DNA from: Candidatus Omnitrophota bacterium
Lineage (GTDB): Bacteria; Omnitrophota; Gorgyraeia; Gygaellales; Profunditerraquicolaceae
Direction: 5' to 3'
NCBI GenBank assembly: GCA_043798795.1
Contig: JAZDOJ010000052.1
Location: 30,940 to 94,939, forward strand
DNA length: 64,000 bases
Numbering within the stretch: position 1 is the first letter of the stretch; each line of letters begins with the position of its first letter. The position numbers were made by a program. This document shows positions 42,001 through 54,000 of this stretch, piece after piece.

Positions 42001-45000
42001 CTAAAGCTAAAAAAGGGTCCCGCTCCCTTTTTTTTAGCAGGAGATTTTTATTGATTCATATCTCTTTTGTTGTATAATAAAAATAATATTAACCAAGGAG
42101 GATAGATGCGTCACGCCGTTAGATGTTCTGGTTTTGTTTTATTCCTTATTTTATTTCTTAGCCCATCCGGATTCACTCAGGAAACCCTCACCATTACCAC
42201 CTACTATCCTTCGCCCTACGGCAGTTACAATGAGTTAAGGGCTAATGAGTTAAGGGTCAAGCAGATGACCGTCGGGAGCGCCTATCAGTCAGAAAGCCTA
42301 GCAGACGGAGAGCTGCTTGTCTCCGGAAGCATCGGTATCGGAACCATCACTCCGCGCTCCAAGTTGGAAATCGTTGGCGGCGGTATTCAGATCGACAATG
42401 ATGCAGCTGCCTGCGATGCTACAAAGGCAGGGACCATAAGGTATAATAGCGGCGTATTGGAATATTGTAATTCAAGTAGCTGGTCTTCGTTACAGATTCT
42501 TCAGGGGACTCTGTGCGGTATGGCTGTTGATGGTGTTCAACAAATGTCTTGTTTAGGATTTAACCCTGCGGTGGATTGTCCGTCTGGGTATACATCGTTC
42601 TGTTGGGCTGGAGCAGGGATCACGTCATGTTTTTGTAGCAGGAATTAATTTTTCCGGTGCAGAAAGGAAATACTTAAGGAGATGTTTAAGACAGCGTTTT
42701 TCAGGTATTGAATAGTGCCTGGAATATGCTATACTTATTTTAGAGACTCTAGAGAAGGGGATAGGCAGGTAAAAGCGGCATTATAAAATTTTTTTAAAAA
42801 AAGATAGCAAAAAGAAAGATTTATGACCTATTCTCCCTTTAGAGAATAGGTTTTTTCATTGAGGCCACAACTTACGGAAGCGAGCTCCTTCACTTCGTTC
42901 AGGATCGTCCTGAACATGGAGTGACGAAGGACGAAGCGACGTAAGTTGTATGGCCGAAATAATCCTTGACGCACAAGGTTCGAAGTTTTTTAACATGGAT
43001 TTTGCGTCAAGGATAAAATTCGCACATAAACTTATGTCGTGCTTTCGCACTCCATAAGTTTAGTGCTCATTTTACTTGACAAACAGGAAGGGGGGTGATA
43101 AAATATAAAACTAATTAGAAGGGGACAGACGCAACGGAGAGTTTCGCCTCTTTAATTAAAGCAGAAGTTATAATACATAAATAAAAGAAGAGAGGCCGAA
43201 AAGTTGCGGCTAGTCAATCCACCCTTAGAAAGGAGGCTTTTTTAGAATGAAAAGAAGAGGTTTTACGCTCGTTGAAATTATGATCGTTGTGGCCATCATT
43301 GCTTTATTAGCTGCCATTGCCATACCGAACTTATTGACGGCAAGAAGAACAGCCAACGAAGCAGCAGCCAAAGCTACGGTGCGCAGTTTCTCAACTGCGG
43401 CAGAAACATTCGCGACGTCTCACAGCGGCGTGTATCCGACGGCAGTGGGCGCAGGCGGTTTGCTGGATTTTATCAGTTCAGCGCCTAACTATTGTGCGGA
43501 TGCAGCAGGCGCTGCCACACCCATCCAGGGTTACAATTACAGATGCACCTTGACTGCAGGCGGTTACACTTTTGTGGCTGAGCCGATGACCGTTGGCACC
43601 ACCGGAAACGTCACCTATACAGCGTCTACAGGAGGCGTGGTCACACCTCTGTAAGAGGAGTATGGTTTTTTATGGCGCTGATAAAAAAGGAGGAGAGTCA
43701 AATCTCCTCCTTTTTTATATAGTGTCCCGATAAATAAATGATGATACCGGTTTTAAAAGGGGATAAAACGAAGCGCAGCAGAAAAAAATTATTCATTCTA
43801 AGTTTTATTTTAATCGCGGTCTGCGTTTTTCTTGCCTATTCCAACAGCCTGACCAATCCCTTTATCTGGGATGACGCGGCCTTAGTCGTCGGGAACCCTT
43901 TGATTAAAGAAGGGGCTTCCCTGAAAAAGATATTTACCAGCGACCTCTACTACGGGACAACCACCGGCTCCAATTTTTACCGGCCCCTCCAGACTCTCTC
44001 CTATCGCTTCGATTATTTTTTCTGCCAGTTAGAGCCTAAGGGATACCATCTGACCAATATCTTTTTGCAAAGCCTTGTCTCATGCCTCGCCTTTTTATGG
44101 GCTTATCTTCTTTTGGGAAACCTGCTGGTTGCTCTGGCCGCAAGCCTACTCTTTGCCGTCTGCCCCTTGCACACAGAGGCCGTTACCTATATTTCCGGCA
44201 GGGCTGAGATGCTCATGGGGATATTTTTGTTATCCTCTTTTATTTTGTTTATAAAAAGTGAAAATGCCTCAAAAGGCAAGTTCATTCTTACCCTCTTTTC
44301 TTTGTCATCATTCATCCTGGCCCTGCTATCCAAAGAACTGGCTACTGTTTTTCCCTTTGCGATTTTTTCCTACTCGTTTTATTACGCGAAAGAAAACCAC
44401 AAAAGGTTTGTGTATTTTTTAAAAATCGTCCTGCCGTTTTTTGTCATTTCAGGGGTCTACGTTTTTTTGAGGTTATGGCTTCTAAGGTTCATGACGCTTA
44501 GGCCTGCGGCCTTAACCAGGATCCCTTTTTTGATCAGGATCACGGTTTTTCCCAAGGTCCTCTTGACGTACCTAAAGCTTTTGGTTTTTCCGGTTGACCT
44601 GCACATGTCGCGCGAACTCATCCGGCCGACCTCTTTCATCGGTACCTTTTTTGCCTGGTTTGCCCTTGGGAGTATCGTCGTATGTATCTATTATTGCTTA
44701 CGCAACAAAAAAGGATACAGGAAAGCGCCTTTTTTGCTGTCCTGGTTTTTGATTTTTCTTCTGCCCCAATCCGGTTTATGGCCCATCAACGCCTTTGTCG
44801 CGGAACATTTTTTGTATCTATCCTCCTTAAGTTTTTTTATAGCCGTCGTTGCTTCCCTGTACCGGTTCCTGAGAAAGCCGTTGTTTATTCTGACGGTTGC
44901 CAGCCTTTTGTTTTTCTACGGGATCCTCACCTTCTCGCGCAATTATGAATGGTCAGACCCCGTGGTTTTTTTCCAGCGCATCATCAAATTTTCACCCAGT

Positions 45001-51000: not shown

Positions 51001-54000
51001 TATCGTCAGCACCCCTGATGTGATCGGCAATGTCACTATCAAACTTGTGGATGTTCCCTGGGAGACAGCGTTGGATGTGCTCCTGAAGACGTATGGCTTT
51101 GGTTACCAGAGGCAGGGGAATATTATCCTGGTCACCAAAATGGAGAACATATCCAAGATCCAGGCTGAGGAGGCCTTGCAGACAGAGATTTTTACACTCA
51201 AATTTCTGGACGCTCAGGATGCCCAAAAGATTCTCATTCCGTTGCTCTCTCCGCGAGGCAAGATCTCTGTCCTTTACTCCCGTGGGTTGAAAGGATGGCA
51301 GTTTGGCACTTTCAAAATCGGGAAGGAATCAGTGTCTTCGATGGGCTTATCCAGAGAAAGGGAGGAGTCGGCTAAAGCCGAGACCATTTCCATTGAGAGG
51401 TCGGCGACGGGTGATACGGTTTCTCGCAAAGCCGAATTTGAATCTTCCATCAAATCCAAGATATTAGTCATCACGGATACAGCGGCTTCTCTGGACAGGA
51501 TCCGCAATGTCATTCTTCCTGTGATTGACAAAAAACCTCAACAGGTGCTTATCGAAACCAAGCTGATAGAGGTCAACAGGAATAAGTTAAGAGATTTAGG
51601 CGTTGACTTTGGGACAGGTTCCACTGGAGCCGAAACCAACACTCCAGGTTTTGTGACCGCCTCGAGAAAGAGCGGCGGGATAGATTCCTCTACAATAGCG
51701 GCGCAGAGCGCGGTCCCTTTGGTTAAGCCCTCGGTTTTTGGAGCTCTTGAGTCGTCCGTTACAGGTATGTATCCTTATCAAATGGGTGCTGAGTTTATAT
51801 TTAGAAAATTGACAGGAACAAATTTTGAGGTCATCTTGCACGCCCTTGAAGAGGATGCCAGCACCAACACCCTCTCCAGCCCCAAGATATTGACACTGGA
51901 TAACCAGGAAGCATCCATCCTGGTCGGTTTTCACACGCCAATCCTGAGCTCTACCGTGACCGCAGGTTCTGCTACCGCAGGGACAACAGCGACCGTGACG
52001 CAGACTTTAGACTATTATCAGGAAATAGGCATCCGCCTCAATGTCGTGCCTCAGATCAGCGAGGAGGGTTACATCAACATGATTATTCATCCCAGCATCA
52101 CCTCCACGACCTCTAGCATCGATGCAGAGTCTAGGGACGGCGCAGGCACTCTCCTCACCAGCACTAGCTATCCTGTTATTGATGTGCGTGAAGCGCAGAC
52201 CCAGGTGCTTTTGAAAGACGGGGAGACGATCGTGATCGGAGGCTTGCTTAAGGATGTCAAGAGCAAGCAGATAATAGGTGTTCCTTTATTAAAAGATATT
52301 CCTTTTCTGGGAGCCTTATTCAGGAGGGAAACCTATGATACAGAAAAAGTAGACCTGTTGATCTTTATCACTGCCCATATCGTCAAAGAAGGCGAGTTCT
52401 CTCAGGAAGAGATTACGAAATTGGAAAAGAGCCTTAGCCCCATTGAGGGCGAGGCCGAAGAAAAAGCTGTTGTTAGAAATAAGAAGAAAAAATAGGCTAC
52501 AACAAGAGTTATGTTTTTCTTAGGACACCTTTTCAGGGTGTGACAAGAAGAGGTGTCCTTTGTTTTTATGATGAGAATAAACTTTGTTTTTACAAAAAAA
52601 GGAAATATGAAATATATCTCGCATCTGGACCTGATGCGCCTGTTGATGCGAGCGTTTCGCCGAAGCGGCCTGCCTCTTAAAATGACGCAAGGATTTAATC
52701 CCCATCCGAAACTCAGCATGCGGCGCGCTCTAAAGTTAGGGCTTGAAAGCGACCGTGAAGAGGCAGCCATCGTCTTAAGGGAAGAGGTGGGGTTGGAAGA
52801 GTTCCGGGAATGGTTGTCAAAACAGTTGCCCGAAGGAATCCATATAAAAGAGGTTGAAAAAAATGCCTAAAGAAATTTTTATAAACGTTGAGCCTCAGGA
52901 AAAACGCGTTGCGGTCATCTCCGACACTCGGCTTGAGGAGTTTTATATTGAAAGGCCCCAGGACAGGACGATTGTCGGCAATATCTATAATGGCAAAATT
53001 GAAGCGGTGATGCCATCCATTGGGGCTGCGTTCGTTGATATCGGTTTGCCCAAAAAGGGGTTTCTTTATCTGTCCGAAATAGAATCGGCTTATGAAGGCC
53101 TGGAGCAGCCCAAGGCGGCAGTGCGTCGCGAGGTGAAAAAGGGCCAGGATATCCTGGTGCAGGTGGTCAAAGAGTCTTTCGGGACAAAGGGGCCCCGGCT
53201 TTCGACGCAGATTGGGCTAGCTGGCCGGTGTCTCGTGCTCCTGCCTCAGGAGAACCAGATCGGCGTATCCAGGCGCATAGAGGATGAGGAGGAGAGAAAA
53301 CGCCTGAAGCAGATGCTTCGCGAGATCAAACTGCCTAAGGATGTCGGGTATATCGTGCGAACAGCAGCCAGCGGCAAATCCAAGAAAGATATTGCCCAGG
53401 ATGCCCAGTTTCTCTTTAAGTTATGGAAGAGGCTGGAACGCCTCATTGCGCGCCAGAGTGCACCCCACCTCATCTATGAAGAGTACGATCTGACGCTACG
53501 GGTGATCAGGGATACTTTTACGGATGAGGTCACCAGGCTCATCGTTGATTCAAAGCCCGAATATTATCGGATCCAGAATTTCATGAGGCACTTCTTAAGC
53601 CACATGGCAAAAAGGATCGAGCTCTACAAGGGGGATAATCTATTCGAAGAGAAGGGAATCGAGAAGCAGATCAACAGGATCTTTGAAAGTCACGTTTATT
53701 TAAAATCCAAGGCCTACCTGATCATAGAGCCTACGGAAGGCCTGGTCGTGATTGATGTCAATAGCGGAGGCTTTAAGAGGAAATTCGGCCAGGAGGAGAC
53801 TGCTTTTAAAGTGAATTGCGAGGCTGCCGCAGAAGTCGCCCGTCAATTGGTTTTGCGCGATTTAGGAGGTATTATCGTTATCGACTTTATCGATATGGGG
53901 AGGGAGCATCACCGCCGGGAGGTCTTGAATATCCTCAAGAAGGCTTTAAGCGGCGATAAAGCCAAATACGATATCTTAGGTATCTCTAAGTTCGGCCTGG

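What the first reader, a model, noticed from the sequence alone, without database searches (positions are those of the whole stretch)
43247..52495. Cluster B: T4aP-like cluster with major pilin, minor pilins, PilX, PilMNOPQ but no motor
This locus contains a textbook major pilin with its own promoter and terminator, a GT-C/TPR gene, four minor or non-canonical pilins including a PilX_N protein, and separate pilM, pilN, pilO, pilP and a second secretin. No extension or retraction ATPase and no platform protein are present. Either cluster B uses the PilB/PilC encoded in cluster A (9 kb upstream), or dedicated motors lie outside the window. Two secretins and two PilM/N/O/P sets within 30 kb indicate two distinct envelope-spanning machines.
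Basis: partly seen in the sequence, partly recalled or inferred. Interest (0 to 1): 0.6.

Follow-up and report, generated by a model that had tools for sequence, protein, structure and literature searches.

The report
Omnitrophota type IV pilus structural gene cluster
This is the pilus-fibre and envelope-channel half of an ordinary type IVa pilus in an uncultured Omnitrophota bacterium. Its motor genes lie elsewhere, which is the usual arrangement and not an anomaly.

Summary
Window 43247-52495 (+) encodes a major pilin with its own promoter and terminator, followed by a ten-gene operon. That operon holds a GT-C glycosyltransferase fused to TPR repeats, an uncleavable PilA paralogue, three minor pilins (PilV/W/X-like), PilM, PilN, PilO, a PilP-like protein and a secretin. 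No ATPase, platform protein or prepilin peptidase is in the cluster.

The organism is a Candidatus Omnitrophota MAG. The cluster sits at the same chromosomal position, upstream of DUF2344-rng-rplU-obg-proBA, in six related genomes, and none of those has a motor gene within 10 kb.

Cluster A is a second, anciently diverged system (secretins 29% identical, PilM 22%). It has a fused PilM-PilN, a PilB-type ATPase with a c-di-GMP-binding motif, and a platform protein. In some relatives it also carries PilT. In others PilT and PilD sit inside ilv and aro operons.

Which PilB/PilC drives cluster B remains open. My estimate is about 0.55 for a dedicated pair elsewhere and about 0.3 for sharing with cluster A.

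Split type IVa pilus loci are normal, and type IVa pili are already reported for this phylum. This is a new member of a known kind, of modest interest.

The parts
43076..43104 (+). sigma-70-type promoter of the major pilin gene (TTGACA-17-TAAAAT, with TG upstream of the -10)
   Evidence: 11 of 12 matches, the best site in 42-53 kb. The promoter and 5' UTR (43070-43240) are conserved at about 69% in L001, L003 and L005.
43247..43654 (+). major pilin PilA, 135 aa, class III signal peptide MKRRG|FTLVE
   Evidence: N_methyl E=8e-9. TIGR02532 is above its cut-off. Orthologues are 82% (L001) and 76% (L121) identical. It is the first gene of the cluster in every relative.
43689..43716 (+). intrinsic terminator after pilA (8-bp GC-rich stem, loop GTCAAA, T6)
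   Evidence: Read directly from the sequence. It was not among the 20 sites listed.
43738..45759 (+). GT-C fold glycosyltransferase (residues ~1-405) fused to a TPR domain (~408-672); TMTC/PMT-like architecture
   Evidence: TPR Pfam hits. AF2 models at pLDDT 86.8 and 85.4. The N-terminal domain's top 22 PDB matches are all GT-C enzymes. P41 F42 W44 D45 D46 are invariant in 43 homologues. Some homologues carry PMT_2/PMT hits and the JGI name 'protein O-mannosyl-transferase'. The gene lies directly after pilA in L001, L005, L121 and L125.
45849..46268 (+). PilA paralogue with a non-canonical N-terminus (AKSFVTIMI; no Gly-1, no Glu+5), 139 aa, four conserved Cys
   Evidence: 30% identical to PilA, E=3e-17. 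Conserved in all six B-type loci that reach this position, including the reduced ones. No Pfam hit.
46279..46635 (+). minor pilin, 118 aa (PilV/GspI-sized)
   Evidence: N_methyl E=4.8e-5. Orthologues in L001, L003 and L005. Absent in L121 and L125.
46637..47224 (+). minor pilin, 195 aa (PilW/GspJ-like)
   Evidence: Weak HpsC, GspJ and Verru_Chthon-C hits, E=7e-5 to 1e-3. 28% identical to the cluster A 200-aa pilin.
47217..48089 (+). PilX/GspK-like tip pilin candidate, 290 aa
   Evidence: PilX_N over the whole model, but E=0.21. The L001 orthologue (83% identical) has a weak PilX_N hit. The L003 counterpart is a 633-aa DUF4900 protein.
48095..49126 (+). PilM, 343 aa
   Evidence: PilM_2 E=2e-46. 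TIGR01175 scores 171 bits against a cut-off of 133. Identical to P0001.
49137..49712 (+). PilN, 191 aa, with the PilM-binding N-terminus MIEINLLP
   Evidence: The motif is conserved in the L001, L005 and L121 orthologues. It aligns to the C-terminal half of the Amuc_1101 PilM-PilN fusion. The L125 orthologue has a weak PilN Pfam hit.
49709..50320 (+). PilO, 203 aa
   Evidence: Pfam PilO scores 32.7 bits against a cut-off of 22.
50322..50720 (+). PilP-like protein, ~132 aa, membrane-anchored
   Evidence: Assigned by its position between PilO and the secretin in every relative. Only faint GspC_delta (E=0.024) and T2SSB similarity. This is an inference.
50717..52495 (+). secretin, 592 aa (N0/STN plus Secretin domains)
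   Evidence: Secretin E=3.4e-46, STN E=2.8e-10. PilQ scores 258.9 (cut-off 284) and GspD 255.8 (cut-off 351).
29404..32354 (+). candidate trans-acting motor: PilB-type ATPase (573 aa, tandem MshEN c-di-GMP motif) and PilC/GspF platform (409 aa) of cluster A
   Evidence: T2SSE E=1e-135, T2SSF E=5e-57. PilB 617.8 vs GspE 596.8 bits; NF053729 scores 66 bits against a cut-off of 38. The nearest relatives outside the phylum lie in pilB-pilT-pilC operons. A link to cluster B is not shown.

Best explanation
Cluster B is the fibre and envelope-conduit module of a type IVa pilus (T4aP) in an Omnitrophota bacterium.

How it is expressed (inferred from the sequence):
- pilA is transcribed strongly on its own, from a near-consensus promoter, and ends at a terminator.
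- The ten tightly packed or overlapping genes downstream form one operon.

What the operon supplies:
- A priming set of minor pilins (PilV-, PilW- and PilX-like) plus a membrane-anchored PilA paralogue.
- The inner-membrane alignment complex. Cytoplasmic PilM clamps the INLLP N-terminus of PilN. PilN pairs with PilO, and the PilP-like protein links them to the secretin.
- The outer-membrane secretin channel.
- A GT-C/TPR enzyme. It most likely uses a polyprenyl-phosphate sugar on the periplasmic side to O-glycosylate the Ser/Thr-rich C-terminal part of the pilin or another pilus protein, with the TPR domain acting as a substrate or partner clamp. This is inferred from fold, motif and conserved position only.

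What must come from elsewhere:
- Polymerisation needs a PilB ATPase, a PilC platform and a PilD peptidase. Retraction needs PilT. All are supplied in trans.
- My estimates: a dedicated PilB/PilC pair outside the window, about 0.55; the PilB-type ATPase and platform of cluster A, about 0.3.
- By analogy with relatives, PilT and PilD are expected inside amino-acid biosynthesis operons outside the window.
For: Gene identities.

Operon packing.

Promoter and terminator.

Organism and phylum-wide synteny:
- The order is pilin-[GT-C/TPR]-PilA paralogue-[minor pilins]-PilMNOP-secretin-DUF2344-rng-rplU-obg-proBA.
- It is seen in L001, L002, L003, L005, L121 and L125.
- There are no motor-like ORFs in any of these loci.

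GT-C fold and the invariant DD motif.

PilT is a real Omnitrophota gene (TIGR01420, 470.9 bits against a cut-off of 319).
- It lies in cluster A in L015, L089, L091, L093 and L122.
- It lies between ilvN and ilvC in L123 and L124, where PilD lies between aroE and aroC.

T4aP was already reported in nearly all Omnitrophota (PMC10066038).
Against: - No pilus has been seen, and there are no expression data.
- The PilN and PilP assignments lack significant HMM support.
- The secretin and the pilin score below the PilQ and PilA equivalog cut-offs, so a pseudopilus or secretion role cannot be excluded from sequence alone.
- The glycosylation target is a guess. L003 has a B-type cluster without the GT-C/TPR gene.
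- The motor was not identified. The source contig could not be retrieved and no genome-wide inventory was possible.
Confidence: 0.8

Rival explanations
1. One motor, two machines. The PilB-type ATPase and platform of cluster A, together with PilT and PilD elsewhere, drive both the cluster A complex and the cluster B complex.
For: - The A ATPase is PilB-type. PilB is its top NCBIfam hit, with full-length coverage, and its nearest outgroup homologues lie in pilB-pilT-pilC operons.
- 16 of the 17 Omnitrophota loci recovered with this ATPase are cluster-A-type; the other holds a solitary ATPase. None is a separate pilBTC operon.
- None of the PilT contexts examined includes a second PilB/PilC.
- A and B lie on the same strand, 9-25 kb apart, in the window and in GCA_028715785.1, and by implication in GCA_043814315.1.
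- B lacks its own minor pilins in L121 and L125, so it already depends on other loci there.
Against: - Cluster A has its own fused PilM-PilN, PilO, secretin and pilins, so its motor looks dedicated.
- The A and B alignment proteins are only 22-28% identical, so one ATPase/platform pair would have to dock on two different scaffolds.
- I know of no precedent for this; that statement rests on my own knowledge.
- The genome scan used exact peptide patterns taken from the A ATPase, so it is blind to diverged paralogues.
- The A-B linkage is embedded in generally conserved housekeeping synteny. It is broken in L003 and L091.
Confidence: 0.3
2. A dedicated PilB/PilC pair for cluster B lies outside the window, as in Pseudomonas, Neisseria or Thermus. 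Cluster A is then an independent T2SS-like or T4P-like system.
For: - In known bacteria with several type IV filament systems, each has its own ATPase and platform (established knowledge).
- T4P genes are demonstrably scattered in this phylum. PilT and PilD sit inside ilv and aro operons. An orphan pilin sits in the arg operon of the window. A solitary PilB-like ATPase occurs in L016.
- Omnitrophota are reported to carry several GspE/GspF-type and Tad loci.
Against: - No such pair was seen in about 40 Omnitrophota loci sampled. The sampling was not genome-wide.
Confidence: 0.55
3. Cluster B is a secretion-type (T2SS-like) pseudopilus system and not an extracellular pilus.
For: - The pilin N-terminus scores about as well against GspG as against PilA.
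- The secretin scores about as well against GspD as against PilQ.
- The gene order major pilin then H/I/J/K-like recalls gspGHIJK.
Against: - Separate PilM and PilN with the INLLP motif, plus PilO and PilP, are the T4aP signature. T2SS uses GspL, GspM and GspC.
- PilM passes the PilM cut-off.
- A monocistronic, strongly promoted pilin gene fits a major fibre subunit.
- GspG is far below its cut-off (41.8 vs 88.85 bits).
Confidence: 0.08

Closest known systems
Type IVa pilus of Pseudomonas aeruginosa, Neisseria and Myxococcus xanthus (pilA, fimU-pilVWX, pilMNOPQ)
   Same: - A short-leader pilin with Phe+1 and Glu+5.
- A set of minor pilins.
- Separate PilM and PilN with the INLLP motif, plus PilO, a PilP-like protein and a secretin.
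- As in Pseudomonas and Neisseria, pilMNOPQ is not next to pilB/pilC/pilT.
   Different: - Pilin, minor pilins and pilMNOPQ are fused into one locus.
- No AMIN domain was detected in the secretin.
- No PilY1 or PilW/Tgl pilotin was recognised.
- A GT-C/TPR enzyme and an uncleavable PilA paralogue are inserted between pilA and the minor pilins.
- Motor genes are not identified.
TfpW of P. aeruginosa group IV pilins, and eukaryotic TMTC1-4/PMT O-mannosyltransferases
   Same: - A GT-C fold enzyme encoded directly next to the major pilin gene, as for TfpW (own knowledge).
- A GT-C membrane domain with an acidic DD pair in the first extracytoplasmic loop, followed by C-terminal TPR repeats, as in TMTC (own knowledge).
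- The best single PDB match is Pmt4, TMq 0.56.
   Different: - The window protein has no significant sequence match to PMT_2, PMT or DUF1736.
- Sugar, donor and acceptor are unknown.
- No TfpW sequence was compared here.
Type II secretion system (GspC-M), as a comparator for cluster A
   Same: Cluster A has a fused PilM-PilN (GspL-like architecture), a PilO/GspM-like protein, a secretin, an ATPase, a platform and four or five pseudopilin-like genes in one block.
   Different: - Its ATPase is PilB-type, with a tandem MshEN c-di-GMP motif.
- Several lineages carry PilT inside the cluster, which T2SS lacks.
- All Gsp equivalog scores are below their cut-offs.
Akkermansia Amuc_1098-1102 pilus-like cluster (PVC group)
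   Same: PilM and PilN of cluster B align to the N- and C-terminal halves of the Amuc_1101 PilM-like fusion (E=2e-45 and E=7e-4). Both secretins hit Amuc_1098 weakly.
   Different: - The scores are far below the family cut-offs (155 vs 650 bits).
- In cluster B, PilM and PilN are separate proteins.
- No Amuc_1100 homologue was looked for.

Membership tests
Type IVa pilus (T4aP) | Major pilin with a short class III leader, Gly-1/Phe+1/Glu+5 and a C-terminal disulfide | tested here: met
   MKRRG|FTLVEIM. N_methyl E=8e-9. TIGR02532 is above its cut-off. Two Cys in the C-terminal half.
Type IVa pilus (T4aP) | Separate PilM, PilN, PilO and PilP alignment proteins | tested here: met
   PilM scores 171 against a cut-off of 133, and PilO 32.7 against 22. 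PilN is assigned by the conserved INLLP N-terminus. PilP is assigned only by position and faint hits.
Type IVa pilus (T4aP) | PilQ-type secretin | tested here: inconclusive
   The Secretin domain is clear. PilQ scores 258.9 against a cut-off of 284.35, and GspD scores almost the same. No AMIN domain was detected.
Type IVa pilus (T4aP) | PilB extension ATPase and PilC platform belonging to the system | tested here: inconclusive
   None in the cluster. One PilB-type ATPase and one platform lie 12 kb upstream in cluster A.
Type IVa pilus (T4aP) | PilT retraction ATPase and PilD prepilin peptidase | tested here: not met
   Neither is present in the 64-kb window. Both exist in related Omnitrophota at other loci. 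For this genome the question is not testable with these tools.
Type II secretion system | GspG, GspL, GspM, GspC and GspE/F equivalogs | tested here: not met
   For cluster B, GspG scores 41.8 against a cut-off of 88.85. There is no GspL-type fusion and no GspE/F.
GT-C glycosyltransferases (PMT/TMTC-like) | GT-C membrane fold | tested here: met
   The AF2 model has pLDDT 85.4 and pTM 0.89. PDB Foldseek ranks 1-22 are all GT-C enzymes, with probability 0.98-1.00 and TMq up to 0.56.
GT-C glycosyltransferases (PMT/TMTC-like) | Acidic catalytic pair in the first extracytoplasmic loop | tested here: met
   P41 F42 W44 D45 D46 are invariant in 43 homologues, directly after TM1. That the loop faces the periplasm is inferred from the positive-inside N-terminus.
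GT-C glycosyltransferases (PMT/TMTC-like) | Significant match to the PMT_2, PMT or DUF1736 sequence models | tested here: not met
   The window protein has no such hit at E<=0.01, and phmmer against PDB finds nothing. Some homologues (49-64% identical) carry precomputed PMT_2 or PMT hits.
GT-C glycosyltransferases (PMT/TMTC-like) | Glycosyl transfer to the pilin | not testable with these tools
   Only the conserved position next to pilA supports it: the window plus four relatives.

The most novel reading that the evidence does not exclude
In Omnitrophota a single c-di-GMP-sensing PilB/PilC pair, encoded in cluster A, powers two anciently diverged envelope complexes: the A complex with fused PilM-PilN, and the canonical PilMNOPQ of cluster B. 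PilT and PilD would be hard-wired into amino-acid biosynthesis operons. The cluster B fibre would be O-glycosylated in the periplasm by a TMTC-like GT-C/TPR enzyme.
Probability: 0.2. Interest if true: 0.6.

Novelty: new member of a known kind. Interest (0 to 1): 0.3.

Why it matters
Omnitrophota are uncultured, mostly ultra-small bacteria thought to live attached to, or preying on, other cells. Type IV pili are prime candidates for that contact (PMC10066038).

This analysis gives the gene-by-gene layout of the phylum's conserved pilus locus. It adds two conserved components that have not been described: a GT-C/TPR enzyme and an uncleavable PilA paralogue. It also shows that pilus genes are spread through housekeeping operons.

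If one motor really serves two machines, that would change how such systems are counted in genomes. As it stands, the locus is a normal split type IVa pilus.

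Tried and rejected
- **Retrieving the source contig.** I tried to extend beyond the window through exact-protein look-ups. The window PilM, the window pilin and P0001 are not on record.
- **Genome-wide motor inventory.** This was not possible.
  - The one genome-contig scan, seeded with the A ATPase, returns only pattern-matching relatives.
  - The metagenome scan with PilT gave 34 loci.
  - Matching contig lengths between the PilM, GT-C and PilT hit lists linked only JAQURC010000003.1.
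- **Literature.** Seymour 2023 and its supplements, and the 2026 complete-genome preprint, give no per-gene pilB/pilT counts.
- **A shared regulatory element upstream of clusters A and B.** This idea is rejected.
  - The two homologous structured elements are inverted pairs of a hairpin repeat, REPIN/MITE-like.
  - Copies also occur next to ilvC, aroC and ComFB genes in other genomes.
  - The element is absent upstream of pilA in the close relative L001.
- **Cluster A as a plain T2SS.** Rejected, because the ATPase is PilB-type and PilT sits inside the cluster in several lineages.
- **A recent duplication of A and B.** Rejected, given 22-29% identity.

Full report
**1. What is there**

All genes of the window lie on the + strand. 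The region 43247-52495 starts with a 135-aa prepilin with leader MKRRG|FTLVEIM (N_methyl E=8e-9).

- It is preceded by the best sigma-70-like site of the region: TTGACA-17-TAAAAT with an upstream TG, at 43076-43104.
- It has a GAAAGGAGG ribosome-binding site.
- It is followed by an 8-bp GC-rich hairpin with a T6 tail at 43689-43716.
- The promoter and 5' UTR are conserved in three relatives.

Ten genes follow with gaps of 0-12 nt or with overlaps, apart from about 90 nt before the third one. In order they are:

- A 673-aa membrane protein with C-terminal TPR repeats.
- A 139-aa PilA paralogue. The 167-aa ORF starts too early.
- Pilin-like proteins of 118, 195 and 290 aa.
- PilM. It passes TIGR01175 (171 vs 133 bits). 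Its start is at 48095, and it is identical to P0001.
- A 191-aa protein with the PilM-binding N-terminus MIEINLLP, which is conserved in its orthologues.
- PilO (Pfam, above the cut-off).
- A small anchored PilP-like protein.
- A 592-aa secretin.

Nothing in the cluster, and nothing in the window outside cluster A, carries a T2SSE, T2SSF or Peptidase_A24 domain. Only the PilX_N label is weak (E=0.21 in the window protein; a weak precomputed hit in the 83%-identical L001 orthologue).

**2. Organism and conservation**

The closest database proteins are annotated as Candidatus Omnitrophota MAG proteins. One is identical and sits on a 101-kb NCBI contig that could not be retrieved.

Cluster B sits at a fixed position, directly upstream of DUF2344-rng-rplU-obg-proB-proA, in six further genomes:

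| Locus | Assembly | PilM identity to the window |
|---|---|---|
| L001 | GCA_043814315.1 | 80% |
| L002 | not given | 64% |
| L005 | not given | 57% |
| L003 | GCA_041643015.1 | 56% |
| L121 | GCA_028715785.1 | 49% |
| L125 | GCA_028716245.1 | not computed |

- The core pilin-PilA paralogue-PilMNOP-secretin is constant. L002 begins at PilM, so its pilin end cannot be seen.
- The GT-C/TPR gene follows pilA in L001, L005, L121 and L125, but not in L003.
- The three minor pilins are present in L001, L003 and L005 and absent in L121 and L125.
- No motor-like ORF occurs within 10 kb in any of these loci.

**3. The GT-C/TPR protein**

- The N-terminal 420 residues have more than 1000 homologues, and every hit that carries an organism name is from Omnitrophota. 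Some have PMT_2 or PMT Pfam hits or the JGI name 'protein O-mannosyl-transferase'.
- P41 F42 W44 D45 D46, right after the first transmembrane helix, are invariant.
- The AF2 model of this domain has pLDDT 85.4 and pTM 0.89. Its 22 best PDB matches are all GT-C enzymes: STT3, Pmt4, ArnT, PglB/AglB, DPY19, Pmt1/2, EmbB and AftA.
- The full-length model (pLDDT 86.8) adds a TPR superhelix.
- A GT-C membrane domain plus C-terminal TPRs is the architecture of TMTC O-mannosyltransferases. A GT-C enzyme next to pilA recalls TfpW of P. aeruginosa. Both comparisons rest on my own knowledge and were not tested here.
- Pilin glycosylation is therefore my preferred function, but it is an inference.

**4. 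Cluster A and the motor question**

Cluster A spans 24350-34283. It encodes:

- A GspK-like small protein.
- A 539-aa PilM-PilN fusion.
- A PilO-like protein.
- A PilP/T2SSB-like protein.
- A secretin.
- A 573-aa ATPase.
- A platform protein.
- Four pilins.

The ATPase scores 617.8 bits for PilB and 596.8 for GspE, both just under their cut-offs. It carries the tandem MshEN c-di-GMP motif (NF053729, 66 bits against a cut-off of 38; sequence read).

Its closest homologues outside the phylum (43-47% identical) sit in pilB-pilT-pilC(-pilA) operons of Acidobacteriota and other phyla.

Cluster A is itself syntenic in 16 of 17 Omnitrophota loci recovered: UvrA-TPR-(ExbBD)-cluster A-(radical SAM)-Memo/AMMECR1-RsmE-MiaB-like. 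The 17th locus, L016, holds a solitary ATPase.

A bona fide PilT (TIGR01420, 470.9 bits against a cut-off of 319) lies among the cluster A pilins in L015, L089, L091, L093 and L122. A remnant of it is visible in L019.

In L123 and L124, PilT lies between ilvN and ilvC, and a prepilin peptidase lies between aroE and aroC. A third minor-pilin-like set lies upstream.

The A and B paralogues are 22-29% identical. Orthologues across genomes are much closer than that. These are therefore two old, distinct machines.

**5. Which motor drives B?**

This is not resolved.

For sharing with cluster A:
- The PilB-type nature of the A ATPase.
- The absence of any separate pilB/pilC in the PilT and ATPase contexts sampled.
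- The A-B linkage on one strand: 9 kb apart in the window, with the motor genes about 25 kb upstream of cluster B in GCA_028715785.1.
- The fact that cluster B already relies on other loci for minor pilins in some genomes.

Against sharing:
- Cluster A is self-contained.
- Its scaffold proteins are very different from those of cluster B.
- I know of no precedent.
- The searches were seeded from the A ATPase and were not genome-wide.
- The phylum is reported to hold several GspE/GspF and Tad loci.

I put a dedicated pair elsewhere at about 0.55 and sharing at about 0.3.

**6. Comparison and novelty**

Split T4aP loci, with pilMNOPQ apart from pilBCD and pilT, are standard in Pseudomonas, Neisseria, Thermus and cyanobacteria (established knowledge). 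T4aP has already been reported in nearly all Omnitrophota by TXSScan (PMC10066038).

The cluster is a new member of a known kind. Its distinctive but modest features are:

- The conserved GT-C/TPR enzyme.
- The uncleavable PilA paralogue.
- The pattern of pilus genes embedded in housekeeping operons.

**7. A side lead that was closed**

Both clusters are preceded by homologous, strongly folding elements of about 180-230 nt (z=-9.9). A covariance model gave these results:

- The hairpin has 16 pairs, seven of them with compensatory changes.
- Each element is an inverted pair of the same hairpin repeat.
- Copies sit next to unrelated genes in other genomes.
- The element is missing upstream of pilA in L001.

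It behaves like a REPIN/MITE-type repeat and not like a regulator shared by clusters A and B.

Noticed in passing
window 23857-24041 and 42847-43082: Two copies of a REPIN/MITE-like element. Each is an inverted pair of a ~70-nt hairpin repeat with a central hairpin, and conserved flanks AATTCGCGCA and GCTCATTAAA. They lie just upstream of the promoters of clusters A and B. No Rfam family matches. Other copies occur in L003, L014, L119, L123 and L124. The element is absent at the orthologous site in L001.
   Followed up: yes
window 4246-4647: An orphan prepilin gene (133 aa, N_methyl E=2e-6) inserted between argF and argG in the arginine operon. It is 37% identical to the second pilin of cluster A. 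In L007, L009, L010 and L013 the cluster A pilin at that position is closer to this orphan than to the window's own cluster A copy.
   Followed up: partly
L123 10001-16830 and L124 10001-15457: In two related Omnitrophota genomes PilT sits between ilvN and ilvC, and the prepilin peptidase sits between aroE and aroC. A further minor-pilin-like set lies after alr. Pilus genes are embedded in amino-acid biosynthesis operons.
   Followed up: partly
L015 14288-15346; L019 6595-7071; L122 10001-11071: PilT lies among the cluster A pilins in several lineages. In the single-cell genome L019 only its first ~28 codons remain, fused to a pilin ORF. The window's cluster A has no PilT.
   Followed up: partly
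window 29404-31125: The cluster A ATPase starts with a tandem MshEN-type c-di-GMP-binding motif (KLGELLVQEGLI...Q / RLGEILVRLGYI...Q). It also has the CxxC...CxxC zinc motif. Assembly is probably controlled by c-di-GMP.
   Followed up: partly
window 34375-37155: tRNA-Ala(CGC) lies directly after the last cluster A pilin. It is followed by an AmmeMemoRadiSam set: a radical SAM gene plus a fused Memo-AMMECR1 gene.
   Followed up: no
window 42106-42648: A 180-aa ORF with no family hit. It looks like the truncated N-terminal part of a 398-aa secreted protein that occupies this position in L001 (33% identity over 110 aa).
   Followed up: partly
window 14534-16487: A GT2 glycosyltransferase lies next to a PMT_2-type GT-C protein (407 aa). 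This pair could make and use a polyprenyl-phosphate sugar, so it is a possible donor pathway for the pilus-linked GT-C/TPR enzyme.
   Followed up: no
window 24136-24342; L122 2415-2639: A 68-aa ORF lies between the cluster A promoter and its first gene. In L122 a 74-aa HTH_17 protein occupies the same position. It may be a small regulator of cluster A. It was not analysed.
   Followed up: no
window 19341-23645: An 857-aa TPR protein, ExbB, ExbD and a 211-aa unknown protein precede cluster A. The TPR protein is there in most relatives that reach this position. The ExbB-ExbD block is present in L012, L014, L015, L020 and L023 and absent in L007, L008, L010 and L013. Whether they act with the cluster is unknown.
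   Followed up: no
L121 and L125, cluster B region: In GCA_028715785.1 and GCA_028716245.1 cluster B lacks the 118-, 195- and 290-aa minor pilins. In L003 the 290-aa gene is replaced by a 633-aa DUF4900 protein, and the GT-C/TPR gene is absent.
   Followed up: partly
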